Virus record (IMG/VR): IMGVR_UViG_3300045988_063706
Location: 1 to 53,359 of that record
Length of the DNA stretch: 53,359 nt
From: a virus
Direction: 5' to 3' (one strand)
Part shown: positions 1-43,316 of the stretch, piece after piece
Position numbering within the stretch: position 1 is the first letter of the stretch
How the letters are laid out: every line of letters begins with the position of its first letter
Made by a program: the position numbers and the translations under genes
The notes under the pieces: model-generated
Seen by the model: only the letters and a program-made list of their open reading frames with translations
Told to the model about the DNA's origin: nothing
The model's database searches: none

Positions 1-55
1 AGACCGAGTCATTGCATTTTACGGTCATGCGAAAAAGACGGTGGTTGATATAATT
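1..55. repeat. 55-bp terminal direct repeat, identical to 53305..53359. It is the assembly overlap of a circular or circularly permuted genome.
   Basis: Bases 1-55 (agaccgagtcattgc...ggttgatataatt) recur exactly as the last 55 bases of the window. Confidence 0.95.
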
Positions 56-11615: not shown

Positions 11616-12416
11616 TTATCTTACAAGGTTAGGAACCTGCTGAGGGATAGGACAGGCCCCGCCGTCACAGTGAGCAGAATGCTTTTCCCTCCACTCATCC
11701 AGACTGCGCTCATACAGGTGCAGGCTCCCGGCGAAATGGGTATAGGTTCCGATATCAACCCCGAGCCGAAATGCAAGCAAAATCTGGAAACAAGTGAATG
11801 AGAAAACATCATACGGGAACCCGGTCCACAGGTCATTGGAGCGCATATAGGTCGTCGCATGGAGTTTTCCGTCCCGGATTAAATACTGGAGCGCAACGGT
11901 GCAAGGGACGTCTTTTGTGGGGAATGTGTTGTAGTCCTCGGCATCCTTGATATGGATAACTGCCTGACGGCTGAGCGGGTTCTTGGTCAGGGCCTCAACC
12001 ACATACTCGAATTGGTCAAACCCGAACCGCTCAAAGATGCGCTGACCGTATGCAGAATTGACAGTCACGCCATCGTCAGACATACGCTCCCAAACCTTGG
12101 AGAATACGCTGATATCCTTGAGCCGGTTAGAGCCGGACAGATACCACAGCAGTTCCCCCACGGCGTACCGCATGGGCATTCTCCGGTCGTCGCTCGTAAC
12201 GATATTTCGGGTCGGGTCATTGATTACCGTGATAGCGTTCAGGCACTCAGCAACGACAGCCCCGTCACGAGAGGGGTCATTCTTACCGGCCTCAGCCTGT
12301 TTGTGGAACATATCGAACCACTCCTGCCACGCCTCATTGACCGTCCTGGTCTCAACCAGAATACCAGTCGGGGTCAGGGTCCCGCCATTCATGGGGATAT
12401 TGCATACGTCACTCAT
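11616..12416 (-). CDS. Thymidylate-synthase-fold pyrimidine C5 transferase. It has Asp at the base-discriminating position, so it is a candidate dCMP hydroxymethylase or methylase.
   Basis: Strong RBS GAAAAGGAGGAAAACGGATATG at 12416. VPCTVALQY (catalytic Cys), YMRSNDLWTGFPYD, SLHLY. The Asp lies 31 residues after the Cys, where E. coli ThyA has Asn177 and T4 gp42 has Asp179. Confidence 0.75.
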   Translation of the reverse strand: MSDVCNIPMNGGTLTPTGILVETRTVNEAWQEWFDMFHKQAEAGKNDPSRDGAVVAECLNAITVINDPTRNIVTSDDRRMPMRYAVGELLWYLSGSNRLKDISVFSKVWERMSDDGVTVNSAYGQRIFERFGFDQFEYVVEALTKNPLSRQAVIHIKDAEDYNTFPTKDVPCTVALQYLIRDGKLHATTYMRSNDLWTGFPYDVFSFTCFQILLAFRLGVDIGTYTHFAGSLHLYERSLDEWREKHSAHCDGGACPIPQQVPNLVR

Positions 12417-12879
12417 ATCCGTTTTCCTCCTTTTCAAGTTTGGTTCCTGCAAAGTTGGCGTCATACCGGATGACCGGCAAAATACTCTCCGCCATTAGTC
12501 CCTCGAAGCGACTGAGCAGTTCCGGGACGGGGATGAGGGTAACTTCACCCCTTGCCGCTAAACGCTCCATGATGAGTCCCTCAGGAGCCGTGACGAGGAT
12601 TACCTTGCCCTCGGCGTCAAGTATGCGAGCCTCAAGCCGGTGCAACTCCTCTTTTGTGATATGCCGCTCCTCTTTCTTTTGGTACACGAACTGACCGTAG
12701 CAGAACCGGTCAGCAATAATGTTCCGGGTCATAGCCGCCGAAATGATACTGTCGAAAAAGTCATAATCGTTCGGGGTTTTGGCGGTGCAATGAACGATAT
12801 CAGCGTTCAGCAGTTTGGAAAGGAACTTTGCAAGTGTAGTCTTGCCAGTTCCGTCACAGCCCTCGAGAACAACCAGCAT
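12409..12879 (-). CDS. Thymidylate-kinase-like dNMP kinase
   Basis: VLEGCDGTGKTT P-loop and the DRFCYGQFVYQ motif (Tmk DR..S..AYQ). 156 aa. Confidence 0.7.
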   Translation of the reverse strand: MLVVLEGCDGTGKTTLAKFLSKLLNADIVHCTAKTPNDYDFFDSIISAAMTRNIIADRFCYGQFVYQKKEERHITKEELHRLEARILDAEGKVILVTAPEGLIMERLAARGEVTLIPVPELLSRFEGLMAESILPVIRYDANFAGTKLEKEENGYE

Positions 12880-13305
12880 TCAATTCACCCCCGTTGAACC
12901 CCATCCGCCTCTGGACTTATCAGGGAGGGTTTCTACCTCTGTGAATTCGACCTCAGGCTGGAGAGGGTAAATCATAAATTGACAGATGCGCTCATTCTTT
13001 TCGATGGTGACGTCCCGTGTAGCATAGGCAAAGAAACCCCATACGTCGTCATTCCCACAGAAAGAATTCTCAAAAACCCCGATGGAGTTTGCTTGCAAAA
13101 GACCTGTCCGCTTGAATGTGCTGGAGCGGGGCGCAAGTATGGCTCCATACCCCTCAGGGAGTTTCATGGACACGCCGAGCGAAATAAGGGCCGATTCTCC
13201 TGCTTTCAGGGTAACACGCTCAGCGGCCCGGAGGTCAATCCAGTCACCGACAGGGGTTTTCTTCGGCAACTCAACATCGGTGTGCCGCTTGATTAAAATG
13301 TTCAT
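12880..13305 (-). CDS. dut: dUTP diphosphatase (trimeric dUTPase)
   Basis: GYGAILAPRSS, GVFENSFCGNDDVWGF and a C-terminal RGGWGSTG. Confidence 0.9.
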   Translation of the reverse strand: MNILIKRHTDVELPKKTPVGDWIDLRAAERVTLKAGESALISLGVSMKLPEGYGAILAPRSSTFKRTGLLQANSIGVFENSFCGNDDVWGFFAYATRDVTIEKNERICQFMIYPLQPEVEFTEVETLPDKSRGGWGSTGVN

Positions 13306-14348
13306 GACTTCCTCCGTTTCTTCTTGCCCTTTTTGGGTAGGTTCAGGTTATCGGCACAGGTGATGCCGGTTTCCTTTTCCCAGTCTCTCGCCCGGAGTAC
13401 AGTGAGCGGCTCGTGCTTCTCCAGAACGATATCGTAGTCCTCCTCAGTGGGTTCCTCCATTTCCTGCTTGCCTAAATGGTCAGGCAACAGGCCCTCCCTC
13501 ATGGGGATATGGTCACACACGTTACAGGGGAAGAAAGTCCGATGGTCATGGAACAGAATGCGCCGAGCGGCCTCATACCGAGGATGCCGCCACATATCGT
13601 CAAAACACTTTACCTCCGGGTCCATGCAGTTGACAACAGGGTATTGACCCCGGAAGTCCTGACAGCACATAGCAACCCATCCATCCCAGCGGAAAGACAT
13701 CTCCCGGAAAATGCGGGAGCATACCCGGTCAGAGTAGTCAGTCCGGGGAGGCATACCAGCCCCACAGTGATTCGTCAGTTTGCGGGAAACACAAATCTCC
13801 TCTTCCTCAATAGCGGGGATGATGAGGAGCCGATGCTTCTTGTACTGCTTCGGAGCATACAGGGGGACACCCTTTTGCATACGGACGAATTCAACATGGG
13901 TTCCAGTCTCTTCCTCGTACTTGTCCAACAGTTCTTGGATTTCATCATCGTCAAACTTGCTGTCCTTGTACTCGTCCAGAGTTACGTCGTTCAACCCGGC
14001 GTCAAACATTTTGCAAATAGCGTTGAGGTCTTTGCGAACCCCATAGCCATTCGTCAAAATCTGGACCCAGTGAGTGGGGAGAACCTTGCGAATGAGTTTA
14101 ATGCACGAATAGAAGTTCGGATGCAGGGCGTTCTCCCCATGCCCCGCAATCAGGATGCGAGGGTTATACCCACTCTCCGCAATCAGTTCGCACTCACGGC
14201 GGAGGACATCCTTGCTGATGAAATGCAGTTTGCGCTCAAACCCGTTAGAACCGCAAAAGAAACAAGAGCGGTTGCAACCCTGAACGAGTTCGATTTGAAC
14301 CGTGTTCGGCTTGTAAAAAGCCGAGTTTCTGTACTTCTTTTTCTTCAT
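13302..14348 (-). CDS. Radical SAM enzyme with a SPASM/twitch-like C-terminal Cys cluster
   Basis: QGCNRSCFFCG (CX3CX2C, nt 14251..14280). C-terminus VCSRIFREMSFRWDGWVAMCCQDF...FFPCNVCDH. Lys-rich tail. Confidence 0.85.
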   Translation of the reverse strand: MKKKKYRNSAFYKPNTVQIELVQGCNRSCFFCGSNGFERKLHFISKDVLRRECELIAESGYNPRILIAGHGENALHPNFYSCIKLIRKVLPTHWVQILTNGYGVRKDLNAICKMFDAGLNDVTLDEYKDSKFDDDEIQELLDKYEEETGTHVEFVRMQKGVPLYAPKQYKKHRLLIIPAIEEEEICVSRKLTNHCGAGMPPRTDYSDRVCSRIFREMSFRWDGWVAMCCQDFRGQYPVVNCMDPEVKCFDDMWRHPRYEAARRILFHDHRTFFPCNVCDHIPMREGLLPDHLGKQEMEEPTEEDYDIVLEKHEPLTVLRARDWEKETGITCADNLNLPKKGKKKRRKS

Positions 14349-14351
14349 CTC

Positions 14352-15311
14352 TTACCACCTTACGATGACCGGCTTGGACTCATGGAGTTTATGGTACTGT
14401 TGCCAGTTGATGTCCCCGAACTTATACTGACCATCAGGGAACTTGAATGTTTCCCTTAGATAATGCCGTATCTCCATCTCCATGAGGCCATCATATTCCA
14501 GTTTGTGGAGATGCCGGTTCTTGTCCGGGTTATGCGGGTCACGAACGACCGAGGCAACTTGGTCGTCAATGTAGTCGTAGCACAGGCACGGAATATTAAA
14601 GCAGTCATAACCATTCTGGAGAACCTCTGCGGCGAACCCGATGTCATCTCCATGGAGGTTGAATGCGTCGGGCATTCTTATCCCCGCTTTCTTGATACCT
14701 TTCATATTCAGTATCTTGGTCTGACGAGGAGTAGGGCCTTTGTCTATCTGATACTTGATATCAGCGAGGTCCGCATGGTTTGAAAACCGCTGTTTCCGTA
14801 TGTTACCGAGCAGGACGCTTGGATGCTCTCTAAAGACCTCTCGTGCTATGCGCCCCGTCAACTGCAAAACTTTTTGAGGAATTAAGGGGTCATCTTCCCA
14901 GTCCTTGACCCCGGTGTGCATACTACATTTTTCTCCTGAACCGTTTCGCCCGGTATAGAGGAACTGGAGATACTTGATGTCATCATCCATATCCATAATG
15001 CAGGGCAAATGGTTTTCAATGGCATAGTCCATTATGAACTGACGTGTACTGCCTACTCCGGAGACTGCGCCCTTGGGAATGGGAACCATGTTCATCCCAC
15101 GTTTGAGGAGTTTGCGGTTTGCCTTTTTATAGGCCGCATACTGTTCCTCCCGCACAACGATGAAGACACGCTCAAGGGCCTCGTCAGTGAACAGAGGCAG
15201 GATTTTCTCGCCAGTAACAAACTCAGGCCGATTATAGGAGGGTATGAATACGAATGGCAGGTCTTTCTCAGTGGTCTCGTTGAGAATGCGCTCCATCTTA
15301 CTGCGCTTCAT
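14352..15311 (-). CDS. GT-A-fold glycosyltransferase-like protein (DXD type), candidate DNA or nucleotide glycosyltransferase
   Basis: RBS AAAAGGAGGCTGACCCATG. FVFIPSYNRP first strand, then CIMDMDDDI about 85 residues later. The family assignment is tentative. Confidence 0.5.
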   Translation of the reverse strand: MKRSKMERILNETTEKDLPFVFIPSYNRPEFVTGEKILPLFTDEALERVFIVVREEQYAAYKKANRKLLKRGMNMVPIPKGAVSGVGSTRQFIMDYAIENHLPCIMDMDDDIKYLQFLYTGRNGSGEKCSMHTGVKDWEDDPLIPQKVLQLTGRIAREVFREHPSVLLGNIRKQRFSNHADLADIKYQIDKGPTPRQTKILNMKGIKKAGIRMPDAFNLHGDDIGFAAEVLQNGYDCFNIPCLCYDYIDDQVASVVRDPHNPDKNRHLHKLEYDGLMEMEIRHYLRETFKFPDGQYKFGDINWQQYHKLHESKPVIVRW

Positions 15312-15368
15312 GGGTCAGCCTCCTTTTCAGAGAGGGAGGGGCTTTTATACCCCTCCCCCGTGGTGGGA

Positions 15369-16085
15369 TTAGTCGTCCTCTTCCCAGTCGTCATCCTCGT
15401 CATCGTCCTCGTCGTCCTCCTCATCGGAAGACTTCTTGGACTTCTTTGCCGGGGCTTTCTTCTTGGCGGGAGGGGCTTTCTTGGACTTGCGCTTGGGGGC
15501 GGGTTCCTCATCCTCATCCTCGTCCTCATCGTCTTCGTCCTCTTCCTCGTCCTCGTCATCATCCTCAGGCTCAGGCTTCTTCTTTGCCGGGGCTTTCTTG
15601 GCGGGAGTCTTCTTGGCGGGGGCTTTCTTCTTGGGGGCCTCCTCCTCTTCCTCCTCGTCATCGGTATCGTCCTCATCCTCATCATCGAGGTCCTCGTCCT
15701 CAACCTTGCCGCCCTTTCCGGCCTTGTAATAGTCGGAAATCTTGGCTCTGGTCTGGCCGTTGTATTCCTCCCAGAAAACCTCGATGTCGCAGACCTTTCC
15801 AATCAGCTTGTCCAGGTCAATCTTGAGTTTGCCGTCGGCTTTCATGCCGATAGCCTGGAGGAATGCCTTGAACTTCCACAGGGCCTTGTCGGCCAGAACG
15901 AACGACTCGAACACGGCGGAACCCTTGTCCTCACCCTTGGTGATTTCGAACTTGAACTGGAGCATATCGTCCCCGCCCTGAGAGGTCTTCTCCAGGATTT
16001 CGGCGACCTTTGCGGTGTGAATGCCCTCGCTCGCCTTGGTGTAACTCTCTACACCAGTAAAGTCCAGTTTCTTAACTCTTGCCAT
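15369..16085 (-). CDS. DUF669-like phage ssDNA-binding protein with a long block-polyampholyte C-terminal tail
   Basis: The N-terminal ~125 aa (GIHTAKVAEILEKTSQGGDDMLQFKFEITKGEDKGSAVFESFVLADKALWKFKAFLQAIG) fit the DUF669 pattern found beside Sak4-like ATPases. The tail alternates poly-D/E blocks with KKAPAKK blocks. Confidence 0.65.
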   Translation of the reverse strand: MARVKKLDFTGVESYTKASEGIHTAKVAEILEKTSQGGDDMLQFKFEITKGEDKGSAVFESFVLADKALWKFKAFLQAIGMKADGKLKIDLDKLIGKVCDIEVFWEEYNGQTRAKISDYYKAGKGGKVEDEDLDDEDEDDTDDEEEEEEAPKKKAPAKKTPAKKAPAKKKPEPEDDDEDEEEDEDDEDEDEDEEPAPKRKSKKAPPAKKKAPAKKSKKSSDEEDDEDDDEDDDWEEDD

Positions 16086-16100
16086 TTTGATAGTTCCTCC

Positions 16101-16298
16101 TTAAAAATTATATGTCTTAACAGATACCGAATCACACGGGAGCAGGTCCACGCACTGACGGAAAACCTTGCCCATGATTTCCGGCCCTGTCTTGACTACA
16201 CCAGAACCACGCCGAATCTCTCTGACGGTTGTAGGCTTGCCATCCTTATCACGATTGTAGATGACACCCTTTGCCCGGAATTGAACGTACTCAGCCAT
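16101..16298 (-). CDS. Hypothetical protein (65 aa)
   Basis: Packed between the ATPase and SSB genes. Confidence 0.5.
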   Translation of the reverse strand: MAEYVQFRAKGVIYNRDKDGKPTTVREIRRGSGVVKTGPEIMGKVFRQCVDLLPCDSVSVKTYNF

Positions 16299-17040
16299 CC
16301 TTTTCCCCTCCCATCAGACCGAGTTTACTGAGTTTTGCAAATGAGGGGTTTATCATGACGGCCGGAACCTTTACTTCCTTCGGGGTTTGCAGTTTGGTCC
16401 AATAATAGGGGTTCGGCCCGAGATGCGCCGCATACCGAACAACAGTCTTTTCAACCCCATCCTCAACGACCTCTTTCTTGAGGCGAGTGGTGTGGAACCC
16501 ATAGTTCGCCATTCCCTCCAGATAGGTTCGAGCGCCCTTTGTGGTGCTCGGCCTTGCGTCAGGTAGGATTTCATCCTCCATGCCCTCAATAGCGTCCATA
16601 GCCTCGTGACATGACAGGATTACCCATGTATAGAGGGAGAGTTTGTATGCGAGGCGAATGAGTTCCTCAGTCTCTGTCTTGAGGTCTCCCCACATTTGCT
16701 GAGTCATTTTCTTCTTTTTCTTGACAGCATTTTCGTCAATCCACACATTCGTGACCATGGAAAAGGTGTCCACAAAGACTGACTCGTACCCTGCGCCCTT
16801 TTCCTTAATGAGTTCCTTAAGAACCCCTTTGACGCTGTCAATGTTGTCTGCCCGGAGGCCACTGATATTCTTCTTGTTGCGAATGGTGTTGGAGCCATCA
16901 TCACCGACCTGGACATAGAGTTGCGGCTTGGGCCATGTGGAGCCGAACTCGGTTTTACCCGTGTTAGACTTACCCCATAGCACAACGAGTTTCCGCTGTC
17001 CTAAATCAGCGATATCCTTGACCCCGTCAAGATAGGCCAT
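16291..17040 (-). CDS. Sak4-like RecA-fold ATPase (AAA_24 type)
   Basis: Walker A LWGKSNTGKTEF and Walker B-like VFVDTFS. Sits in a Cas4-nuclease / ATPase / SSB recombination module. Confidence 0.75.
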   Translation of the reverse strand: MAYLDGVKDIADLGQRKLVVLWGKSNTGKTEFGSTWPKPQLYVQVGDDGSNTIRNKKNISGLRADNIDSVKGVLKELIKEKGAGYESVFVDTFSMVTNVWIDENAVKKKKKMTQQMWGDLKTETEELIRLAYKLSLYTWVILSCHEAMDAIEGMEDEILPDARPSTTKGARTYLEGMANYGFHTTRLKKEVVEDGVEKTVVRYAAHLGPNPYYWTKLQTPKEVKVPAVMINPSFAKLSKLGLMGGEKDG

Positions 17041-24568: not shown

Positions 24569-25036
24569 TCAGTTCCTCACGTCCGGGGCGTCCCAGTCCT
24601 TTTCCCAAATGACAGTGACACCAGAGTCCTCGAAAATACGTTGGGTCTCCTCACTGATTTTCTGTTGCCGCCCATAGATGACCCTCGTGATACCGGCCGA
24701 GACAATGGCACGAGCGCAAGCCTCGCACGGATAGCGAGTGACAAAAATGGTTGTCCCGGTGAGGTCTTCTCTTGCGCCACAGATAGCGTCAACCTCGGAA
24801 TGGATTGCCCTGCAATCAGCCGGGGAACGGTGAGTCTTGTCATTGTCCCCATACTTCTCAATCCGGAGACAGCCCCGATACTTGCAGAGGTCAGGGATTG
24901 CCCGGTTCGCACCAAAACTCACCGCTCGGCCATGCTTCACAATAACGGCCCCGACCGTGACCTTAGTGCAACCAGACATGATTCCGGCATAAATGTTCGC
25001 CATGTCTAACCAGTTACTCCACCCCATTACTCGCAT
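24569..25036 (-). CDS. dCMP deaminase (cytidine/deoxycytidylate deaminase fold)
   Basis: RBS GGAGGAGCATCACAATG. HSEVDAI (H-x-E) and YPCEACARAI (PCxxC) zinc motifs. Confidence 0.9.
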   Translation of the reverse strand: MRVMGWSNWLDMANIYAGIMSGCTKVTVGAVIVKHGRAVSFGANRAIPDLCKYRGCLRIEKYGDNDKTHRSPADCRAIHSEVDAICGAREDLTGTTIFVTRYPCEACARAIVSAGITRVIYGRQQKISEETQRIFEDSGVTVIWEKDWDAPDVRN

Positions 25037-25418
25037 TGTGATGCTCCTCCTCTCTCATAATCCCATCGGCTTGAATGTTGTTCTGGATGCGCTCAACGAT
25101 AACGGCGATGAATGTGGTATTCGTGACCTTGCCGCTGTTCATGCTCACCACATTCCCGAAATACTTCTTGCGAGTGTCCTCCGCCATGTTATTGAATGCG
25201 CTCTCAATAGCGTGGCGAATGGCTCTCTCAACTCTGGACGTGGTAGAGTCCACTTCCTTTGCAATATCAGGGTACAGTTTCCCGGTCATGTTCCGCAGGT
25301 ACTCCCGGTCATTGTAGACCATCTCAACTCCGACCTTGAGATAGTCCCACCCCAAAAGACCGGGGTTTATGCCAACATCCAGCAGGGTATCAGAAATCAT
25401 CCATTGTACGGAAGTCAT
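25014..25418 (-). CDS. Stand-alone Spo0A C-terminal (DNA-binding) domain protein, no receiver domain
   Basis: RBS AAAAGGAGGAAAACTGATG at 25418. [43 protein letters not shown]...[15 protein letters not shown] is near-collinear with B. subtilis Spo0A [43 protein letters not shown]...KPTNSEFIAMVADKL. Confidence 0.9.
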   Translation of the reverse strand: [134 protein letters not shown]

Positions 25419-26518
25419 CAGTTTTCCTCCTTTTGGTAGTTCCACGGCTCAGTCGTGGGATGATAGCAGTTGCGGGGACGACCCGTACCATTCACAGCCT
25501 TGATATATTTGCTCAACTCACAGAAGCAATTCTCAAGGGCCATGACATTCAGACAGCGGTCTCCCTCGGGGCGATACTTGAACAGTTTCTCAGGGTTCCA
25601 TCCAAACAGACGAGCATAGTCCCCGGCCTGGAGCGCAATAAAGTACTCGTCAATGTTGTCCCGGAGGAAGAACAGGGCCTCCTCATGGGTCATACCGCCG
25701 TAGTCACTGAACACAAGGTCAAGACCCCGCTTGCACCCCGGCCCCGCAACAGTAAACTCATTCTCGGAGAACGGAAAGTCCTCAATATAGGTCAGGTCAA
25801 CGAATACCTGATAGGCAAGGAATGAGGCAAACCCACGAATCTCCCGGATGATATTGTATGCGGCCTCCTGGTCTTTGGCTTTCATCAGGCGGCGGAACAC
25901 CTTGCGCTCTTTTAACCATGGACCGATATGGAATACCCGCAGGGGGATGTCCGGCTCGTAGTCCTTGAATTTCTTCCCCATTTCCTCAGACGGAGCACGA
26001 CTAAAGCCCTCCCCGTCCGGGAATTTCCATGCGTACTTTGTGCCGCCCTGATTATATGCGCTGGACCACCACTTGCGGTCAGGGCTCTCAATGAGGAGCC
26101 GCTTATAGGTCGGGCGAACTGCTTCCTTTAGGGCCAGCCCATCATAGATTTCATCAGCCGACCACGGCCCCCCGAAATCCGTGAATGTGTTCGGGTTATT
26201 CCAGGACCGGAGCAGGAATGTATTCAGCACCTTTTCCTCCAGAGTGAGTTCAGGGTTCGTGGAAACCAGTTCAATCAGCGCACGGCTGACACGGTCATCC
26301 TCCCGGAATACGTTGGTAAACTTGTACTCCTTAAGAACCGGGTTCTTAGTCCACGGCTGAGGTTTACCGAGGATATCCTTGCGAACGTGAATACGATACC
26401 GCTCAACAATGAAGTCCCGGAGATGCGCCGTGTTCTCCTCATTGAGGTATGGTTCCGCCTTTCTGATGCGCTTTTCGTTGACGCCACAGTAGGCAACGTC
26501 TCTCGGCTTTGTCTGCAT
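25418..26518 (-). CDS. Candidate DNA base hypermodification protein (alpha-glutamyl/putrescinyl-thymine pyrophosphorylase-like, aGPT-Pplase-like)
   Basis: 366 aa. PQPWTKNPVLKEYKFTNVFREDDRVS matches my memory of the PWT..pIL..YRF.NV.RE.DrvT signature of that family, and FLAYQVFVDL lies downstream. From memory only, not searched. Confidence 0.45.
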   Translation of the reverse strand: MQTKPRDVAYCGVNEKRIRKAEPYLNEENTAHLRDFIVERYRIHVRKDILGKPQPWTKNPVLKEYKFTNVFREDDRVSRALIELVSTNPELTLEEKVLNTFLLRSWNNPNTFTDFGGPWSADEIYDGLALKEAVRPTYKRLLIESPDRKWWSSAYNQGGTKYAWKFPDGEGFSRAPSEEMGKKFKDYEPDIPLRVFHIGPWLKERKVFRRLMKAKDQEAAYNIIREIRGFASFLAYQVFVDLTYIEDFPFSENEFTVAGPGCKRGLDLVFSDYGGMTHEEALFFLRDNIDEYFIALQAGDYARLFGWNPEKLFKYRPEGDRCLNVMALENCFCELSKYIKAVNGTGRPRNCYHPTTEPWNYQKEEN

Positions 26519-27448: not shown

Positions 27449-27477
27449 ATAATACCACAATCCCGCCCATTTGTAAA
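27449..27477 (-). promoter_or_regulatory. Sigma-A-type promoter (conserved family)
   Basis: Minus strand reads TTTACA, 17 nt (ending TTGTGG), TATTAT. Confidence 0.6.
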
Positions 27478-27510
27478 GCCCCTATTTTTGCCTTATAAAT
27501 GGGCGGGATT
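27459..27510. repeat. Perfect 14-bp inverted repeat (aatcccgcccattt / aaatgggcgggatt) with a 24-nt spacer, overlapping the promoter
   Basis: Arms at 27459..27472 and 27497..27510. The -35 hexamer lies in the spacer. Confidence 0.85.
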
Positions 27511-27523
27511 TTGTACTTTTGTT

Positions 27524-28180
27524 TCATGCCTCAATACTTCTGCGAGACATAACACTCGAACCGTCCCGCATACCAGCCTCATACGCATTACGACCGAACG
27601 CCGCTTTCGTATTAGAGGAACGGGTCTGTCTCAGGTTCGGGAACTTTTTGCCAAATGCGTCATTCACGTCCTGAGGAACTACCACAGCGAGAGCCACAGT
27701 CTGAGCGTCCAGAGCGGACTTGATACCATGCAGGAACCCGAGGACATAGGAGTTATAATAGTGAGCCGCTCCCTGATGACCGGGGATGAACCCGTTGTCC
27801 CGAGTAGCCTTGTCGCCGCCTTTCTTCATCACGCTGAATGCGAATTCCATAGCGGAGGCGACGGCCTTTGCATTGTCAGAGCGTCCGAAGAATGCGATTT
27901 TATTGGTTGCGCCGAGGATGATGATGCGACAGGCAAAAGCATTCGCCAGAATGGTCCCGAGGGAATTGTTGAACTTGTGCGCTTTGACCTTGGTCTCGAC
28001 GAGTTCGTAGGTGATTTTCTCACCGGTCTGAGCGGCTTCCATATCGACGTTATACTTCGCCATCAGAGCCTGAGCCTTGAGGAGAGCCGCCTTTGCCTCG
28101 GTCTCGGAGGGGTTGTTACCAGCCAGAGCAAGCAGTTTCTGAATCTTGTCGGCAATCTGGTTCATCTTAGTGTCAGTCAT
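27524..28180 (-). CDS. DUF2786-like protein
   Basis: The N-terminus KIQKLLALAGNNPSETEAKAALLKAQALMAKYNV is the DUF2786 signature common in phage and plasmid early regions. Confidence 0.65.
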   Translation of the reverse strand: MTDTKMNQIADKIQKLLALAGNNPSETEAKAALLKAQALMAKYNVDMEAAQTGEKITYELVETKVKAHKFNNSLGTILANAFACRIIILGATNKIAFFGRSDNAKAVASAMEFAFSVMKKGGDKATRDNGFIPGHQGAAHYYNSYVLGFLHGIKSALDAQTVALAVVVPQDVNDAFGKKFPNLRQTRSSNTKAAFGRNAYEAGMRDGSSVMSRRSIEA

Positions 28181-28212
28181 TTTGAAAACTCCTTTCAGCG
28201 ATTGAGTGGTGG

Positions 28213-28743
28213 TTAGGCGACCTCAGTGGAGATATACTCCACGTCGGTCAGCTCGTACTCAGCATTCTTGAAGCGGAACCACACAGAGCCGGTCAGCTCG
28301 TTCTGCCACGCACGGCGGCGAGCCACAGTATCAGCACCCATGAGGAGGGAAACCATCTGAGTGGTCTCATCGTACTCAACGGAGGTCAGGTCGAACAGAC
28401 CGCAGAGCCCGTCGAGGCTGATGCGAGTGTGGGACAGGCCCCACTTCTGCTCCTCGTAGGTCTTGGCACGAGGGCCGGTCTTCTTGCCGGACTTCTTGGA
28501 GGTCTTCTTCTCGGGCTTGCTCTCCTCGGTGGTGGTCTCCTCAGTGGTCTCCTCCTCAGGCTTCTCCTCGGCATTGGTGAAGTCAACGACGATGGACTTC
28601 TTGTACCAACGCTTGAGGACGGACTCGGTGGTGATGATGATATCGGTGGAGTCCTCGATGGAAGTGAGTTCGAACTTGCCGTTCTCCATGGTCTTCATGG
28701 TGTAGGAAGCGCCAGTCTTCTTGGAAGTGTAGATAGTAGTCAT
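28213..28743 (-). CDS. Hypothetical early protein with an acidic/Thr then Lys-rich linker
   Basis: First gene after the promoter at 28809..28837. EEKPEEETTEETTTEESKPEKKTSKKSGKKTGPRAK separates two folded-looking halves. Confidence 0.65.
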   Translation of the reverse strand: MTTIYTSKKTGASYTMKTMENGKFELTSIEDSTDIIITTESVLKRWYKKSIVVDFTNAEEKPEEETTEETTTEESKPEKKTSKKSGKKTGPRAKTYEEQKWGLSHTRISLDGLCGLFDLTSVEYDETTQMVSLLMGADTVARRRAWQNELTGSVWFRFKNAEYELTDVEYISTEVA

Positions 28744-30488: not shown

Positions 30489-31166
30489 TTACATATAATC
30501 AGAGCCATAATGGGAATGAGTAGGCTCCCAAAAGTTTTCGAACTCCTCGTGCTCGGTACGAAACCAGTTCCGCTCCCCGTCACCGTGGAAGTACACATAC
30601 TCAACCGGCAACGTGCGAACAGCAGTCGGGTCTCCAAGATGGAGTCGGTTCCATTCATTCCACACACTGAGAGCCATATCGTAGAACTCAGGCTCAACCG
30701 GGTTATCAGGGTCATATCCGTGGAACTGAGACTGAGTGCATACCTCAGCAATCGTGTCAGGGAAGCGAGGGTCATCAATACGGTTGAACACGCACCAGAT
30801 GACAGCCTCCTGCTCAACCTTTAATTCCACGCCACGAGCCTCCCCCCATACCATTTGAGCAAGACGGCGCATATCAGCAGGGTCAGCGGCGGGGACTAAT
30901 GTGTTATAGTCCACAGTGACGGACTCTGAGCCGACCTCAGCCTCCTCCCCGCTATTGGGGAGGGACTGGGTCATGGTTGCCTTTGCCGGGACGGTGAGGT
31001 CGTCCTGAGCGTCCCTCGCAAGGACTGTCATGGTGATACCTGCATACATAACCAAACACACGGCCGACAGCAGTACACCCAACAGGATGCCAAACGGCTC
31101 AGGGCGATAGCGGCGTCTCCGCTTGCGCTCAGGGTGGATGCGAACGGTGATTATCTTCTGGGTCAT
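30489..31166 (-). CDS. Membrane-anchored SleB/CwlJ-like cell-wall hydrolase (Hydrolase_2 family)
   Basis: Basic N-terminus plus a TM segment (FGILLGVLLSAVCLVMYAGI). LAQMVWGEARGVELKVEQEAVIWCVFNRIDDPRFPDTIAEVCTQSQF matches the SleB catalytic-domain signature. Confidence 0.75.
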   Translation of the reverse strand: MTQKIITVRIHPERKRRRRYRPEPFGILLGVLLSAVCLVMYAGITMTVLARDAQDDLTVPAKATMTQSLPNSGEEAEVGSESVTVDYNTLVPAADPADMRRLAQMVWGEARGVELKVEQEAVIWCVFNRIDDPRFPDTIAEVCTQSQFHGYDPDNPVEPEFYDMALSVWNEWNRLHLGDPTAVRTLPVEYVYFHGDGERNWFRTEHEEFENFWEPTHSHYGSDYM

Positions 31167-32161: not shown

Positions 32162-32584
32162 TCAGTTTTGCTCCAGCAGGGTTCCGTCAACGTATACGTC
32201 AACCTCGTCGTCATAGTCCTCGCCCTTTTCCCGGATATAGTAGATGTCCGAGTCTATATTTCGGGTGATTTTCCAGAGGTCACCATAGAACTCGTCTCCG
32301 CAGGGAGTGGAAATACAGGCCGCCGAGATTTTGTTGATACGAATAGATGAAACCTTGCTTTCGCCGGTATAGTCGGAGCCGTCAATGTAATAGATGAACA
32401 GGGAGAAGTCATCGTCCTGGAGGAACTGATACTCACCTTTGCAGAACGGGCCATTCTCGCCGAGTTCGTTGTAGTCATAAAGGTTCTTGTCGAATGCCCG
32501 GAGAGACTTATAATGGATGAACTGAACACCATTGTCATCCTCGAGAATACGATAGGAACGGTCTTCGTAACTAATGCGTAACAT
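32162..32584 (-). CDS. Hypothetical early protein (140 aa)
   Basis: RBS cagaaaggagccgaatATG at 32584. The 309-aa track ORF extends through the promoter region and was trimmed. Confidence 0.6.
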   Translation of the reverse strand: MLRISYEDRSYRILEDDNGVQFIHYKSLRAFDKNLYDYNELGENGPFCKGEYQFLQDDDFSLFIYYIDGSDYTGESKVSSIRINKISAACISTPCGDEFYGDLWKITRNIDSDIYYIREKGEDYDDEVDVYVDGTLLEQN

Positions 32585-32714
32585 ATTCGGCTCCTTTCTG
32601 AAAGAACTCGAGCGAGGTTGCCTTTCGCAACTATTTGTCGCCTTGATACTCCGGAGAGTTGGGTACGACCATTGAGTATTCTGTTTTATCCTCGCTGTTG
32701 TTCTTTCTGACATT

Positions 32715-32743
32715 ATACTACCACAAGGTCGAACAGAATGCAA
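32715..32743 (-). promoter_or_regulatory. Leftward early promoter (conserved family)
   Basis: Minus strand reads TTCTTGCAT, 17 nt (ending TTGTGG), TAGTATaatgtcagaaag. Confidence 0.7.
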
Positions 32744-32822
32744 GAATAATTCTTTGAAAAGATGCACAAAAGAATGAAGAATAAATTGTTCACTTTTATT
32801 CAACAGAAATAGAAGAAAGTTC

Positions 32823-32851
32823 TTGCTTTTAGAATAAAGGTATGGTATTAT
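32823..32851 (+). promoter_or_regulatory. Rightward early promoter (conserved family), divergent from 32715..32743
   Basis: TTGCTT, 17 nt (ending GTATGG), TATTATactatcagaaagg. Confidence 0.65.
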
Positions 32852-32881
32852 ACTATCAGAAAGGAACAGGAGGTCAATCAA

Positions 32882-40406: not shown

Positions 40407-40453
40407 GGGCTTTTTGAAAATTTCTCAGAAAAATTTTGAAAGGAGGTTTTCGT

Positions 40454-42250
40454 ATGGCAGAATGGACACTTGCTGACGCTACTCAAATCAGGGCAAACCT
40501 AACGAAAGAGCAGGAAGACGAGATATCCATGCTCTATCGCAAGGTCTATTTGCAGGTGCGAAAGCAAATGCTCGCTATTCCTAAAGACGGAACGACCTCG
40601 CAACAGCTTCAAAGGCAATATCTGGACAAACTGCATAAACAACTCGACGAGGCGTACAAGTCTCTCGGCGTGGGTCTTGAAAAGCAGATTCAAAAGGAGG
40701 CAAAGAAAGCCGCTCAAGGCGTGGTAGAGTCCTCCAAAAAGATGACGAATAAACTCGGGTTCAAGATTGAGGGTGCATACTCATTCGTTCCAAAAGATGT
40801 CATCAACGCTTTAGTGACTGGGCAGGTATATGGAGGAAACTGGAGCCTGAGTGGTGCTATCTGGGCCGACATCGACAAGAAGCAGTCCGACATCAGTAAA
40901 GTTATCGCTGAGGGCCTTGCGGCGAATAAAAGTGCATACGATATCGCAAAAGACTTGGAAACCTACGTTGACCCTAAAGCGAAAAAGGAATGGGACTGGA
41001 GCAAGGTTTATCCGGGCACAAGCAAAAAGGTCGACTACAATGCTCAGCGGCTGGCTCGTACTATGATTTCCCATGCCTACCAACAGAGTCTCGAACGGGT
41101 ATGCAAGAATAATCCATTTGTTGAGGGGTTTATCTGGCAATCCGCACACTCAAGTCGGGTTTGTCCTATCTGCGCCGAGCGGGATGGGCAGTTCTACAAA
41201 AAGGGTGAACTCCCGCTTGACCATCCGAATGGAATGTGTACCTTTATCGCAAGTATTCAAGGCTCTATGAATGATGTCGCTGACCGGCTTGCTGATTGGG
41301 CAAATGGCAAGAGTGACCCCGAACTGGACAAATGGTACGAGGATATGACCGGGGGCAAGGCTACTCCGGTATTCAACGAGGAACAAAAGAAATGGCTGGA
41401 GCCTCTTGGCTACTCGGTGAATAATATGCCTACAAACTTCAAAGAGTTTGCTACTCAGTTATCCTTTGACCAACAGAGCGAGCTCCTTTCCCTTGCCGGT
41501 GGCTCATGGAGCAGTCCTCATCCATATCAGCTCATGGAGAAATACTACAAAGAGCACTTGCTCAGTGTGAGGGCCGGGGTTTCTGCTATACAGAAGCCGA
41601 AAAAGCCTCCTATCGGTATGAGCAAGGAACTCATGGAGGAACTGTTCAGAAAGCAGGATTACTCTGTCATTGGAAAACTTTCCGAAGCGACGAATAAGTG
41701 GTGGAAGTCCTTAACTCAAGAGGAGCGAGATGCGGTTGAGGCCTATACTGGAAGTTCCTACATTGATATGAATAACTTCCTGCGTGGCATTGATAAAAAT
41801 ATCGCAGACTATATGAAGAAGCGAATTCAGGACTGCCGCTCCGCTCTTAACAAGGTAGAAAGCCCCTTTGACATCGTTGTGGGCCGTGGCTCCAGCACAA
41901 GCAGTCTCCGGGGAATGCTTGGAAAGCCTAAAGGCATGAAAACCGCTATTGATGATGGCGAACTTGCAGATTGGGTGAATAAGAACAAGGACTCTTTGAT
42001 TGGCTCTATTGCAAGCGACAAGGGTTTCCTCTCAACGACCCCTGTTGAGGGCGGCGGGTTCTCGGGCGATATCACTTATCGAATTTTTGTGCCTAAAGGC
42101 AGTCATGGAGCCTATGTTGACGAGTACAGTAGACATCAGGGTGAGCGAGAGCTCCTGTTGCAAGCCGATGGAAAGTTTAGAGTGACTGACCTTGTCGCCT
42201 CCTATGGGAATAGGGTTACGGTCTATATGGAGTACATTCCGCAAAAATAA
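40454..42250 (+). CDS. Minor head protein (SPP1 gp7 / Mu F-like) fused to a C-terminal ADP-ribosyltransferase (R-S-E type) domain
   Basis: gp7 core ARTMISHAYQQS...WQSAHSSRVCPICAERDGQFY...LDHPNGMCTF. ART region from about nt 41690: AYTGSSYIDMNNFLRG, VVGRGS (Arg), GFLSTT (STS-like), QGERELLL (ExE). Confidence 0.8.
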   Translation: MAEWTLADATQIRANLTKEQEDEISMLYRKVYLQVRKQMLAIPKDGTTSQQLQRQYLDKLHKQLDEAYKSLGVGLEKQIQKEAKKAAQGVVESSKKMTNKLGFKIEGAYSFVPKDVINALVTGQVYGGNWSLSGAIWADIDKKQSDISKVIAEGLAANKSAYDIAKDLETYVDPKAKKEWDWSKVYPGTSKKVDYNAQRLARTMISHAYQQSLERVCKNNPFVEGFIWQSAHSSRVCPICAERDGQFYKKGELPLDHPNGMCTFIASIQGSMNDVADRLADWANGKSDPELDKWYEDMTGGKATPVFNEEQKKWLEPLGYSVNNMPTNFKEFATQLSFDQQSELLSLAGGSWSSPHPYQLMEKYYKEHLLSVRAGVSAIQKPKKPPIGMSKELMEELFRKQDYSVIGKLSEATNKWWKSLTQEERDAVEAYTGSSYIDMNNFLRGIDKNIADYMKKRIQDCRSALNKVESPFDIVVGRGSSTSSLRGMLGKPKGMKTAIDDGELADWVNKNKDSLIGSIASDKGFLSTTPVEGGGFSGDITYRIFVPKGSHGAYVDEYSRHQGERELLLQADGKFRVTDLVASYGNRVTVYMEYIPQK

Positions 42251-42306: not shown

Positions 42307-42492
42307 ATGTCAAGCAAATTCGAATGGACAGAAGAGACGGCTCCGAAGCCGGTACGCATGGAAGACCTCGTCTGTAAAGACTGCTTCCATAGGAGCGGAC
42401 GAACTGACATCTGTGCTGAGTATCAGGAACTAAAGCCTTTCTCAGTGCTGGATGGTGGTTCTTGTCCACACTACAAAAAGGAGAAGAAATGA
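42307..42492 (+). CDS. Small zinc-ribbon protein (61 aa)
   Basis: RBS gaaaggagtgagactatATG. CKDCFH...ICAEY...SCPHY. Confidence 0.55.
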   Translation: MSSKFEWTEETAPKPVRMEDLVCKDCFHRSGRTDICAEYQELKPFSVLDGGSCPHYKKEKK

Positions 42493-43316
42493 TAAAGAAC
42501 AAGGACAAAATTCTCGGTTCCCTGATTGGGTTTGCTATTGGCGACGCTATGGGTGCAACGACCGAGTTCATGAGCAAGGAGCAAATTCAAAAGCAATACG
42601 GAAAAGTCGACCATATCATGGGCGGCGGTTGGTTAAATCTGCGCCCCGGCTCCGTCACTGATGATACGCAAATGTCCCTCGTAGTTTATAGGGCTATGCG
42701 GGACACGGCTGGTCATCCTGAGCGGACGCTCGAGACGATGTGCGCCGGGTTTAGGGCGTGGGCGGACAGCAACCCGCCTGACATTGGTGGGGCCTGTCGA
42801 CGGGCGATTTACGGAACAAAGTCGCTGAAACCCCGTGCGTGGATATGGCATAACAAGCGGCGACAGGAGGCAACCAAACACAAGGACCTCGGCAACGGTG
42901 GCCTCATGCGCTGTCTTGTGCCTCTGCTGGCGGGTGACTTACGACTGGCAAAGGCTCAGTCTTATCTCACGCATTCCGTTGACACTCACGACACCTATAT
43001 CGAACTCTACTACGAAGCCCTCCAGGATGCCTTTCTTGGGCTGAGGCCTGTATATCCGAAGCACATGGAGCCGACGGGTCATGTCATCAATACTGAGCGA
43101 AATGCTGAATATTGGTGTTATGCTACGACTTCATTCGAGGAGGCTATTATTGGGGCCGTAAATGATGGGGGCGACGCTGATACCATAGCCGCTCTCACTG
43201 GAGGCCTTGCCGGTGCTCTGTATGGGTTTGAGGCAATTCCATTTGAGTGGGTAAATGCCCTCGAACCAGAGGTCGCCGATGAACTTTGTGACTGTGCAGA
43301 CTGGCTCATAAAATGA
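42489..43316 (+). CDS. ADP-ribosylglycohydrolase (ARH/DraG family)
   Basis: GSLIGFAIGDAMGATTEF, SVTDDTQMSL, and the C-terminal GGDADTIAALTGGLAGALYG. Confidence 0.9.
   Translation: MIKNKDKILGSLIGFAIGDAMGATTEFMSKEQIQKQYGKVDHIMGGGWLNLRPGSVTDDTQMSLVVYRAMRDTAGHPERTLETMCAGFRAWADSNPPDIGGACRRAIYGTKSLKPRAWIWHNKRRQEATKHKDLGNGGLMRCLVPLLAGDLRLAKAQSYLTHSVDTHDTYIELYYEALQDAFLGLRPVYPKHMEPTGHVINTERNAEYWCYATTSFEEAIIGAVNDGGDADTIAALTGGLAGALYGFEAIPFEWVNALEPEVADELCDCADWLIK

What the first reader, a model, noticed from the sequence alone, without database searches (positions are those of the whole stretch)
25014..25418. Phage-encoded Spo0A DNA-binding domain with no receiver domain
The 134-aa protein is near-collinear with the C-terminal effector domain of Spo0A. 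It carries MVYND, LYPDIAK and the recognition-helix block T.[12 protein letters not shown] (nt 25201..25250), followed by the ..TN..FIA helix. It starts right at that domain, behind a strong RBS.

Established knowledge: Spo0A is the master regulator of sporulation entry in Bacilli and Clostridia. In full-length Spo0A the unphosphorylated receiver domain inhibits the C-terminal domain. The isolated C-terminal domain binds 0A boxes (TGTCGAA) constitutively.

Inference: the phage expresses a phosphorylation-independent Spo0A mimic, or a competitor at 0A boxes, early in infection. It could block or force host sporulation decisions, or regulate phage promoters. The gene is embedded in a nucleotide-metabolism operon and is not a stray host fragment. 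It also predicts a spore-forming Firmicute host.
Basis: partly seen in the sequence, partly recalled or inferred. Interest (0 to 1): 0.75.

Follow-up and report, generated by a model that had tools for sequence, protein, structure and literature searches.

The report
Gut phage receiver-less Spo0A DNA-binding protein
A complete 53-kb human-gut phage genome encodes just the DNA-binding half of Spo0A, the bacterial master switch for spore formation. It lacks the phosphorylation-controlled half, so it probably acts on host sporulation genes without host signals; this gene class was already reported in gut phages in 2023 and has not been tested experimentally.

Summary
Window 25418..25014 (minus strand) encodes a 134-aa protein that is a full-length Spo0A_C domain: Pfam 104/104 positions, 103.6 bits. 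Its recognition helix is almost identical to B. subtilis Spo0A. An AlphaFold model matches only Spo0A-C crystal structures (RMSD 1.2-2.0 A). No receiver domain is encoded anywhere in the genome.

The window is a circularly closed, probably virulent tailed-phage genome from human gut. The gene sits between a 5-hmdU DNA kinase and a dCMP deaminase, inside a replication and thymidine-hypermodification block. That position is conserved in related phages.

The gene is under purifying selection (dN/dS 0.11-0.18) but diverges much faster than its neighbours. 0A boxes are not enriched in the phage genome, so autoregulation is unsupported and host DNA is the likelier target.

The idea is not new. Schwartz et al. 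2023 (mBio) described truncated, effector-only spo0A homologs in gut phages. I found 279 IMG/VR contigs and thousands of protein clusters in this family. Whether it activates or blocks sporulation, and which host it infects, remain undetermined. Verdict: a solid, well-anchored new member of a known kind, of moderate interest.

The parts
25014..25418 (-). Gene for the 134-aa standalone Spo0A_C protein. The Spo0A_C domain spans residues 8-111; residues 113-134 form a clade-specific acidic tail.
   Evidence: ORF. Pfam PF08769 at 103.6 bits, profile positions 1-104/104. AF2 mean pLDDT 91.7. Foldseek matches only 1LQ1/1FC3.
25426..25430 (-). Shine-Dalgarno GGAGG, 7 nt upstream of the ATG. The ATG (25418-25416) overlaps the TGA stop (25420-25418) of the upstream kinase gene.
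   Evidence: Read directly from the sequence.
25254..25289 (-). Codons for the first helix of the helix-turn-helix (residues 44-55, [12 protein letters not shown]).
   Evidence: AF2 secondary structure. Alignment to 1LQ1.
25203..25241 (-). Codons for the recognition helix (residues 60-72, [13 protein letters not shown]). Residues 61-72 ([12 protein letters not shown]) are identical to B. subtilis S210-E221.
   Evidence: Invariant or near-invariant across standalone homologues. Lowest variability within the phage's own clade.
25014..25082 (-). Codons for the C-terminal tail (residues 113-134, [22 protein letters not shown]). It is absent from bacterial Spo0A and shared only by the closest clade.
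   Evidence: Alignments. Low AF2 confidence (pLDDT 56-66). Highest variability.
25418..26518 (-). Upstream gene in the same operon: 5-hmdU DNA kinase (HMUDK_hel).
   Evidence: Pfam PF18723 at 192.5 bits. Order conserved in L058/59/75 and L091-L096.
24569..25036 (-). Downstream gene: dCMP/cytidine deaminase. Its ORF overlaps the end of the Spo0A_C gene by 23 nt.
   Evidence: Pfam PF00383 at 55 bits. Conserved synteny.
27449..27477 (-). Candidate sigma-70-like promoter (TTTACA-17-TATTAT with TG) in the 121-bp gap upstream of the tightly packed gene run that contains the Spo0A_C gene. Weak evidence only.
   Evidence: The number of promoter-like sites in the region equals the chance expectation, so this is a lead and not a finding.

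Best explanation
The gene encodes a phosphorylation-independent Spo0A effector domain.

Proposed mechanism:
- It is made together with the phage's replication and DNA-modification enzymes during lytic growth.
- The recognition helix and DNA-backbone contact residues are those of bacterial Spo0A, so the protein most likely binds host 0A boxes (TGTCGAA). No kinase or phosphorelay input is needed, because the inhibitory receiver domain is absent.
- The expected result is mistimed occupancy of Spo0A-controlled promoters, and possibly of 0A boxes at the host replication origin. This would uncouple the host's dormancy decision from its own signals.
- I consider the likeliest net effect to be derailing or blocking productive sporulation entry, which keeps the cell usable for phage replication.

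What is shown: domain identity, fold, conserved contact residues, absence of any receiver domain, phage context, conserved synteny, and purifying selection.

What is inferred: 0A-box binding by this particular protein, host DNA as the target, timing of expression, and the direction of the effect on sporulation.
For: Domain identity:
- Full-length Spo0A_C match.
- Sequence matches to the solved Spo0A-C structures 1LQ1/1FC3, E = 3e-23.
- AF2 model (pLDDT 91.7) superposes on DNA-bound Spo0A-C at 1.2-1.7 A, and no other fold matches.

DNA-contact residues:
- Residues equivalent to B. subtilis S210-E221 are identical, including E213, R214 and R217. T194, K203, T208, K246, T248 and N249 are also conserved. 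Their roles as contact residues come from my own knowledge of Zhao et al. 2002.
- The same helix is invariant or near-invariant across standalone homologues down to about 32% identity, and is the least variable segment within the phage's own clade.

Phosphorylation independence:
- No receiver domain anywhere in the genome.
- Isolated B. subtilis and C. difficile Spo0A DNA-binding domains bind 0A-box targets without phosphorylation (PMC3485338).

A maintained, functional gene:
- dN/dS is 0.11-0.18.
- The slot between the kinase and the deaminase is conserved in at least eight related loci.
- More than 60 near-identical variants lie on 50-55 kb contigs from many samples.

Host rather than phage target: 0A boxes are not enriched in the phage (5 vs 8.0; 31 vs 30.4; 145 vs 159).

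Precedent: phage sigF/sigG homologues expressed in B. subtilis reduce spore yield by up to 99% (quoted).
Against: - No binding or expression data exist for any phage Spo0A_C. No isolate phage in INPHARED carries one.
- The host is unknown, so host 0A boxes could not be examined and spore-forming ability could not be checked.
- The segment equivalent to the B. subtilis sigma-A-activating region (residues 227-240, own knowledge) is only partly conserved. F236, G237 and V240 are kept; G227, I229, S231 and S233 are changed. Activator and pure competitor cannot be told apart.
- One close homologue (P0073) has Ser in place of the R217-equivalent Arg, so specificity may not be uniform across the clade.
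- The protein evolves 3-10 times faster than its neighbours. This could also reflect a function other than binding a fixed host motif.
Confidence: 0.6

Rival explanations
1. Constitutive activator. The protein keeps the RNA-polymerase contact surface and switches on Spo0A-activated genes. [quoted passage not shown]
For: - F87, G88 and V91, equivalent to B. subtilis F236, G237 and V240 in the sigma-A-activating region (own knowledge), are kept. F87 is invariant and G88 near-invariant in the standalone family.
- The Spo0A C-terminal fragment is described as a trans-activation domain (title of 1FC3).
- Schwartz et al. leave both activation and repression open.
Against: - Four other positions of the same region are changed, and segment 73-79 is among the most variable.
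- For an apparently virulent phage with its own replication machinery and no integrase found, pushing the host into dormancy during replication seems counter-productive.
- Abrupt rather than gradual Spo0A activity is known to be ineffective for sporulation (Fujita and Losick 2005, own knowledge; reference listed). Even an activator might therefore lower spore yield.
Confidence: 0.2
2. Phage-directed regulator. The protein controls the phage's own promoters, for example an early-to-middle switch, using 0A-like operators. It would have nothing to do with host sporulation.
For: - Phages commonly recruit helix-turn-helix domains as their own regulators.
- One exact TGTCGAA at 32488-32494 and two one-mismatch boxes (32727, 32799) lie within about 310 bp around the divergent promoter region 32585-32881.
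- The gene's slot is conserved in the replication block.
Against: - Exact, degenerate and one-mismatch 0A boxes are all at or below the shuffled expectation genome-wide.
- All five exact boxes lie inside coding sequence.
- In related phages the Spo0A_C gene occupies different slots (L026, L027) or a very divergent allele occupies the same slot (L058/59/75). This is typical of an accessory gene, not a core regulator.
- If thymidine is hypermodified, as the gene set suggests, phage 0A boxes would present an altered major groove.
Confidence: 0.1
3. Host-replication inhibitor. The protein binds 0A boxes at the host oriC, as Spo0A does in B. subtilis (own knowledge: Castilla-Llorente 2006; Boonstra 2013). 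This would shut down chromosome replication and free nucleotides and replisome components for the phage.
For: - The gene is embedded among replication and nucleotide-pool genes: primase-helicase, PolA, dCMP deaminase, ThyA-like, dUTPase-like and a kinase.
- DNA-contact residues are conserved.
Against: - This rests only on position and analogy.
- Among the 80 IMG/VR loci examined, only three (all close relatives) show this neighbourhood, so the link to replication genes is lineage-specific.
- The host origin is unknown.
Confidence: 0.07
4. Decaying or non-functional remnant of a captured host spo0A gene.
For: It is truncated relative to bacterial Spo0A and evolves faster than its neighbours.
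Against: - dN/dS is 0.11-0.18.
- The ORF is intact, with a strong RBS and stop/start coupling.
- The slot is conserved across phages whose primases are 77-97% identical.
- The recognition helix is invariant.
- The protein sits in a deep radiation of standalone proteins, separate from receiver-bearing Spo0A.
- There are thousands of standalone family members.
Confidence: 0.02

Closest known systems
Truncated, effector-domain-only spo0A homologs of human-gut phages (Schwartz et al. 2023, mBio 14:e00182-23; PMC10294663)
   Same: - Encoded on a gut viral genome.
- Aligns only to the C-terminal DNA-binding domain.
- Lacks the receiver domain.
- Same proposed consequence: independence from the host phosphorelay.
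   Different: - That paper gives a survey-level alignment of 29 virome sequences, without genome context.
- Here the gene is placed in a complete, circular 53.3-kb genome, in a conserved slot between a 5-hmdU DNA kinase and a dCMP deaminase.
- Also added here: selection analysis, a 0A-box scan, a structure model and a tree.
- Whether this exact phage was among their 29 sequences was not checked.
Bacterial Spo0A (TIGR02875; B. subtilis P06534; structures 1LQ1, 1FC3)
   Same: - Same six-helix effector fold (TM 0.83-0.94 normalised to the target).
- Residues 61-72 ([12 protein letters not shown]) are identical to B. subtilis S210-E221.
- 44% identity over 105 residues.
   Different: - No receiver domain, phospho-acceptor Asp or linker.
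- Below the TIGR02875 cutoff (98.6 vs 200).
- Phage context rather than chromosomal.
- Extra acidic 22-residue tail.
- Partly diverged sigma-A-activating segment.
Engineered isolated Spo0A DNA-binding domains (B. subtilis Spo0A-C / Spo0A-DBD; C. difficile Spo0A-DBD, Rosenbusch et al. 2012, PMC3485338)
   Same: - Same boundaries, starting just before helix A.
- These fragments bind 0A boxes with high affinity without phosphorylation. That is the behaviour predicted for the phage protein.
   Different: Those are laboratory truncations of host proteins. The phage protein is a naturally evolved, long-diverged standalone lineage, and its DNA binding has not been tested.
Phage-encoded sporulation sigma-factor homologues (sigF/sigG-like; Schwartz et al. 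2022, cited)
   Same: Phage copies of host sporulation regulators that act outside the host's normal control. Ectopic expression lowers spore yield.
   Different: Different protein family and level of the cascade: sigma factors downstream, versus the master response regulator at entry. Those have experimental support; this one has none.
PHROG families phrog_24603 and phrog_37855
   Same: The window protein matches both: E = 2.4e-15 over essentially the whole 111-position profile, and E = 1.2e-24 to positions 161-269 of a 278-position profile.
   Different: Both PHROGs are labelled 'unknown function', so they add no functional information. phrog_37855 appears to represent full-length-like proteins.

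Membership tests
Spo0A_C domain family (Pfam PF08769) | Profile match above the curated gathering score, covering the whole domain | tested here: met
   103.6 bits vs cutoff 25; profile positions 1-104 of 104; E = 6.9e-30.
Spo0A_C domain family (Pfam PF08769) | Six-helix fold with a helix-turn-helix, as in 1FC3/1LQ1 | tested here: met
   AF2 mean pLDDT 91.7, pTM 0.82. Foldseek hits with E <= 0.001 are only 1LQ1/1FC3 chains, RMSD 1.2-2.3 A, target-normalised TM 0.83-0.94.
Spo0A_C domain family (Pfam PF08769) | Signature recognition helix [12 protein letters not shown], including the base-contacting Glu/Arg/Arg (B. subtilis E213, R214, R217; roles from own knowledge of Zhao et al. 2002) | tested here: met
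   Residues 61-72 are identical to B. subtilis 210-221.
Spo0A_C domain family (Pfam PF08769) | Sequence-specific binding to 0A boxes (TGTCGAA) | not testable with these tools
   Needs EMSA, footprinting or ChIP. Inferred only from conserved contact residues and from the behaviour of isolated domains.
Bona fide Spo0A response regulator (NCBIfam TIGR02875 equivalog) | N-terminal receiver domain with phospho-acceptor aspartate | tested here: not met
   No Response_reg hit. TIGR02875 matched only at profile positions 149-259. No receiver anywhere in the six-frame translation of the genome.
Bona fide Spo0A response regulator (NCBIfam TIGR02875 equivalog) | Whole-protein score at or above the curated cutoff (200 bits) | tested here: not met
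   98.6 bits.
Phage-borne truncated Spo0A homologs (Schwartz et al. 2023) | Encoded on a bona fide viral genome | tested here: met
   Terminase, portal, head morphogenesis protein, tape measure, PolA and primase-helicase. Circular 53.3-kb contig. Recurs as 50-55 kb contigs in many samples.
Phage-borne truncated Spo0A homologs (Schwartz et al. 2023) | Aligns only to the effector domain of bacterial Spo0A | tested here: met
   44 of 58 representative related ORFs likewise lack Response_reg.
Phage-borne truncated Spo0A homologs (Schwartz et al. 2023) | The phage infects a spore-forming (Spo0A-bearing) host | tested here: inconclusive
   No prophage copy among GTDB species representatives; the only four hits are distant full-length Spo0A genes in Clostridia/Oscillospiraceae MAGs. 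The nearest isolate-phage primases are from Firmicutes phages, at 22-24% identity. No tRNAs. Host not identified.

The most novel reading that the evidence does not exclude
The Spo0A_C gene is functionally coupled to the thymidine-hypermodification module in which it is embedded. The phage would replace or decorate thymine in its own DNA, using a ThyA-like hydroxymethylase, 5-hmdU DNA kinase, radical-SAM enzyme and glycosyltransferase. Its own TGTCGAA sites would then be chemically masked in the major groove. That would let the phage flood the cell with a constitutive Spo0A DNA-binding domain that acts only on unmodified host DNA (the sporulation regulon and/or oriC). This would be a self/non-self discrimination mechanism for a transcription-factor mimic. 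The fast evolution of the protein and its clade-specific acidic tail would then reflect an arms race with host factors.
Probability: 0.12. Interest if true: 0.7.

Novelty: new member of a known kind. Interest (0 to 1): 0.4.

Why it matters
Spore formation governs persistence and transmission of many gut Firmicutes. It is also a refuge from phage. A phage protein that occupies the master regulator's binding sites without needing host signals would give phages direct control over the dormancy decision. That would affect phage-host dynamics and spore-mediated transmission in the human gut.

The class has been catalogued but never tested. This locus is a good test case for four reasons:
- The genome is complete and prevalent.
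- The ORF is intact and under selection.
- The genomic slot is conserved.
- Natural allelic variants span 51-99% identity.

It does not open a new category of biology.

Tried and rejected
1. Megablast of window 15-35 kb against INPHARED found no match. tblastn of the protein found only 13 unannotated uncultured faecal contigs. So there is no isolate relative and no host from that route.

2. Host identification failed.
- There are no tRNAs.
- Primase tblastn gave only remote Firmicutes-phage hits and one rodent-gut metagenomic virus.

3. The 0A-box scans (exact, TGNCGAA, one mismatch) showed no enrichment or depletion. The exact box at 32488 looked interesting because it overlaps a promoter-like -35 element. 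However, it lies about 95 nt inside the first leftward gene, and the promoter scan is at chance level, so I rejected it as evidence.

4. The promoter and terminator scan around the gene gave counts equal to shuffled expectation, so it does not define the operon.

5. The PADLOC defence-system library gave no meaningful hit for the protein or five unannotated neighbours. A defence-system reading is not supported.

6. The split-Spo0A idea (receiver encoded elsewhere in the phage) was rejected.

7. My first greedy longest-ORF gene map was wrong in places, for example 15009-16331(+) and 27488-28216(+). I corrected it using gene calls from identical loci.

8. I tried to read the 1998 J. Bacteriol. 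papers on the Spo0A sigma-A-activating region by DOI; they are not held. Those residue roles rest on my own knowledge.

9. dS is saturated for the more distant pairs (L091, L092), so dN/dS is reported only for L094-L096.
Full report
**Observation.** The ORF runs from 25418 to 25014 on the minus strand and encodes 134 aa from an ATG. A GGAGG at 25426-25430 lies 7 nt upstream of the ATG. The ATG overlaps the TGA of the preceding gene (TGATG). The recognition-helix block [14 protein letters not shown] is residues 59-72, nt 25203-25244.

Pfam Spo0A_C matches end to end: positions 1-104 of 104, 103.6 bits against a cutoff of 25, E = 6.9e-30. No other HTH family competes. NCBIfam TIGR02875 (Spo0A equivalog) matches only its positions 149-259 of 262 and scores 98.6 against a cutoff of 200. 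That is the effector half only. phmmer against PDB finds only B. subtilis and G. stearothermophilus Spo0A-C, 1LQ1 at E = 3.3e-23 and 1FC3. Identity to B. subtilis residues 157-261 is 44%.

An AlphaFold2 model built on 38 homologues has mean pLDDT 91.7. Foldseek against PDB gives only Spo0A-C chains at E <= 0.001, with RMSD 1.2-1.7 A to the DNA-bound form.

**No receiver domain.** The upstream ORF is a 5-hmdU DNA kinase. I built an HMM from the receiver-plus-linker parts of 13 full-length Spo0A ORFs. It scores 215 bits on its positive controls but at best 5 bits (E = 0.4) anywhere in the six-frame translation of the window. A split Spo0A is excluded.

**Genome context.**
- The window is a whole metagenomic contig from a human-gut sample. 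It has a 55-nt terminal overlap, so it is a circularly closed genome of about 53.3 kb.
- It encodes small and large terminase, portal, a head-morphogenesis protein, a tape measure, PolA, a D5-type primase-helicase, a helicase and an exonuclease.
- None of the ORFs scanned against Pfam matched an integrase or recombinase family. Several large ORFs were scanned only against PHROGs, where they matched structural or replication families.
- Near-identical genomes are always free 50-55 kb contigs with different break points. Together these points favour a virulent, or at least non-integrating, phage.
- The Spo0A_C gene lies in a long leftward block of tightly packed genes: 201-aa ORF, about 90-aa ORF, 5-hmdU DNA kinase, Spo0A_C, dCMP deaminase, two small ORFs, primase-helicase, PolA.
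- Further along the same strand are a ThyA-like enzyme, a thymidylate-kinase-like P-loop kinase, a dUTPase-like protein, a radical-SAM/SPASM enzyme and a TET-associated glycosyltransferase.

**Is the gene maintained?**
- The order kinase, Spo0A_C, deaminase, primase, PolA is conserved in five Logan/ENA relatives (L091, L092, L094-L096) and three IMG/VR relatives (L058, L059, L075).
- dN/dS against the window is 0.18, 0.11 and 0.17 for the three unsaturated comparisons. This indicates purifying selection.
- The protein nevertheless diverges much faster than its neighbours. In L091 the primase is 97% identical, the kinase 90% and the deaminase 85%, but Spo0A_C only 62%. In L092 the figures are 84, 80, 68 and 51%. 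In L058/59/75 the primase is 77% identical and Spo0A_C about 32-37%.
- In a neighbour-joining tree those three copies sit on a different branch from the window clade. The slot is stable while its occupant changes quickly, either by fast evolution or by allele replacement.
- Within the window's own clade, variability is lowest in the recognition helix and the last core helix. It is highest in the N-terminus, residues 73-79 and the C-terminal tail.

**Family and distribution.**
- The search for homologous proteins returned 167 relatives. Most of the 120 listed are 110-140 aa, a minority run to about 215 aa, and all carry PF08769 as their only Pfam domain.
- IMG/VR holds 279 viral contigs with a relative.
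- Of 58 representative ORFs, all have Spo0A_C and only 14 have a receiver domain.
- An exhaustive phmmer search of 1.84 billion cluster representatives gives 6,279 clusters at E <= 0.001 and 2,138 at E <= 1e-10.
- In the tree, receiver-bearing proteins group with B. subtilis and Geobacillus Spo0A. The window protein sits inside a deep radiation of standalone proteins (distance tree, no support values). It is not a recent capture of a host gene.
- INPHARED has no isolate phage with such a gene, only 13 unannotated faecal contigs.

**What it most likely does.**
- Residues 61-72 are identical to B. subtilis S210-E221. This stretch contains the base-contacting E213, R214 and R217 (roles from my knowledge of Zhao et al. 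2002).
- T194, K203, T208, K246, T248 and N249 are also conserved.
- Rosenbusch et al. used the same argument for C. difficile Spo0A. They showed that isolated DNA-binding domains bind 0A boxes with high affinity without phosphorylation (PMC3485338).
- I therefore infer phosphorylation-independent 0A-box binding.

**Where it most likely acts.**
- The phage genome is not enriched in 0A boxes: exact 5 vs 8.0 +/- 3.0, TGNCGAA 31 vs 30.4, one mismatch 145 vs 159 +/- 12.
- The five exact sites are all inside coding sequence. This includes the one at 32488, which lies about 95 nt into the first leftward gene.
- A role as regulator of phage promoters thus has no support, and host DNA is the likelier target.

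**Activator or competitor?** This cannot be decided.
- The region equivalent to the sigma-A-activating segment (B. subtilis 227-240, own knowledge) keeps F236, G237 and V240 but changes G227, I229, S231 and S233.
- For an apparently virulent phage I favour derailment or blocking of sporulation entry. This is analogous to phage sigF/sigG homologues that cut spore yield when expressed.
- That direction is an inference.

**Comparison with what is known.**
- The central idea is published. Schwartz et al. 2023 (mBio) reported that virome spo0A homologs (n=29) align only to the effector domain. They proposed independence from host signals.
- Jiang et al. 2019 found PF08769 enriched in gut Firmicutes mobile elements.
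- PHROGs already holds two matching families, both labelled unknown function.
- I found no experimental follow-up in the library.
- The prediction of a spore-forming host is reasonable but not strict. [quoted passage not shown]

**What this analysis adds:**
- a complete genome context
- a conserved slot within a hypermodification module
- selection and rate data
- a negative 0A-box scan
- a structural model
- the size of the standalone family

**Verdict.** The phage-promoter alternative is not supported. The finding is a new member of a known kind, of moderate interest. The association with thymidine hypermodification is lineage-specific, seen in 3 of 80 IMG/VR loci. It supports only a low-probability novel reading in which phage DNA is masked from its own Spo0A mimic.

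Noticed in passing
window 11616-15311 (-), 24569-25036 (-), 25418-26518 (-): A complete-looking thymidine-hypermodification gene set. It comprises a ThyA-like enzyme (candidate dUMP hydroxymethylase), a thymidylate-kinase-like P-loop kinase, a dUTPase/DCD-like protein, a radical-SAM + SPASM enzyme, a TET-associated glycosyltransferase (TAGT), a 5-hmdU DNA kinase and a dCMP deaminase. The combination of radical-SAM enzyme and TAGT suggests a possibly uncharacterised modified base.
   Followed up: partly
P0121, P0122, P0123, P0125, P0127, P0131; L097:8001-10922: Proteins made of 2-4 tandem Spo0A_C domains with no receiver (for example 454 aa with four domains, 393 bits). In one NCBI genome, two such genes (454 and 462 aa) sit side by side in a chromosomal-looking neighbourhood with uvrC, glmS and bofA. 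I did not check whether these arrays have been described.
   Followed up: partly
P0204; L098:2281-5292: A 1,003-aa metagenomic protein that fuses three Spo0A_C domains with a sigma-70 region 4 domain and three RNA polymerase alpha C-terminal domains. It lies on a 5.7-kb contig with no informative neighbours.
   Followed up: partly
L058:6172-6624, L059:7122-7574, L075:7911-8363 vs window 25014-25418: In related phages the slot between the kinase and the deaminase is kept, but the Spo0A_C occupant is only about 32-37% identical, while the primase is 77% and PolA 71% identical. It also falls on a different tree branch. This suggests allele replacement or very fast evolution at a fixed locus.
   Followed up: partly
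window 40436-42250 (+) and 42462-43316 (+): The head-morphogenesis (SPP1 gp7-like) protein carries a C-terminal ADP-ribosyltransferase-like region (PHROG 3895/802). It is followed by an ADP-ribosylglycohydrolase gene. This may be an injected host-modifying enzyme with its antidote or reverser.
   Followed up: no
window 30489-31166 (-): A 225-aa protein with a weak SleB/CwlJ-type cell-wall hydrolase match (Hydrolase_2, 26.8 bits vs cutoff 27). It is a second 'sporulation-like' gene of the kind listed by Schwartz et al., and may simply be the endolysin.
   Followed up: no
window 1-55 and 53305-53359: An exact 55-nt terminal direct repeat, typical of an assembler k-mer overlap. The contig is therefore a circularly closed genome of about 53,304 bp. 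Related contigs break at different positions.
   Followed up: yes
window 3224, 12750, 19845, 24234, 32488: All five exact TGTCGAA sites are on the + strand, which is antisense to most of the leftward genes they lie in. With five sites this is at most marginal (two-sided about 0.06), and I did not pursue it.
   Followed up: no
window 25014-25082 (-), residues 113-134: A clade-specific acidic C-terminal extension ([15 protein letters not shown]). It is conserved among the closest relatives (P0069, P0072, P0073, P0078, L091) and absent from bacterial Spo0A and most standalone homologues. It is predicted to be helical, at low confidence. Its function is unknown.
   Followed up: partly
L092:1877-2611: A relative of the window phage carries a 244-aa pentapeptide-repeat protein in the early region. 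Such proteins can mimic DNA. The window has no such gene call at the corresponding position.
   Followed up: no
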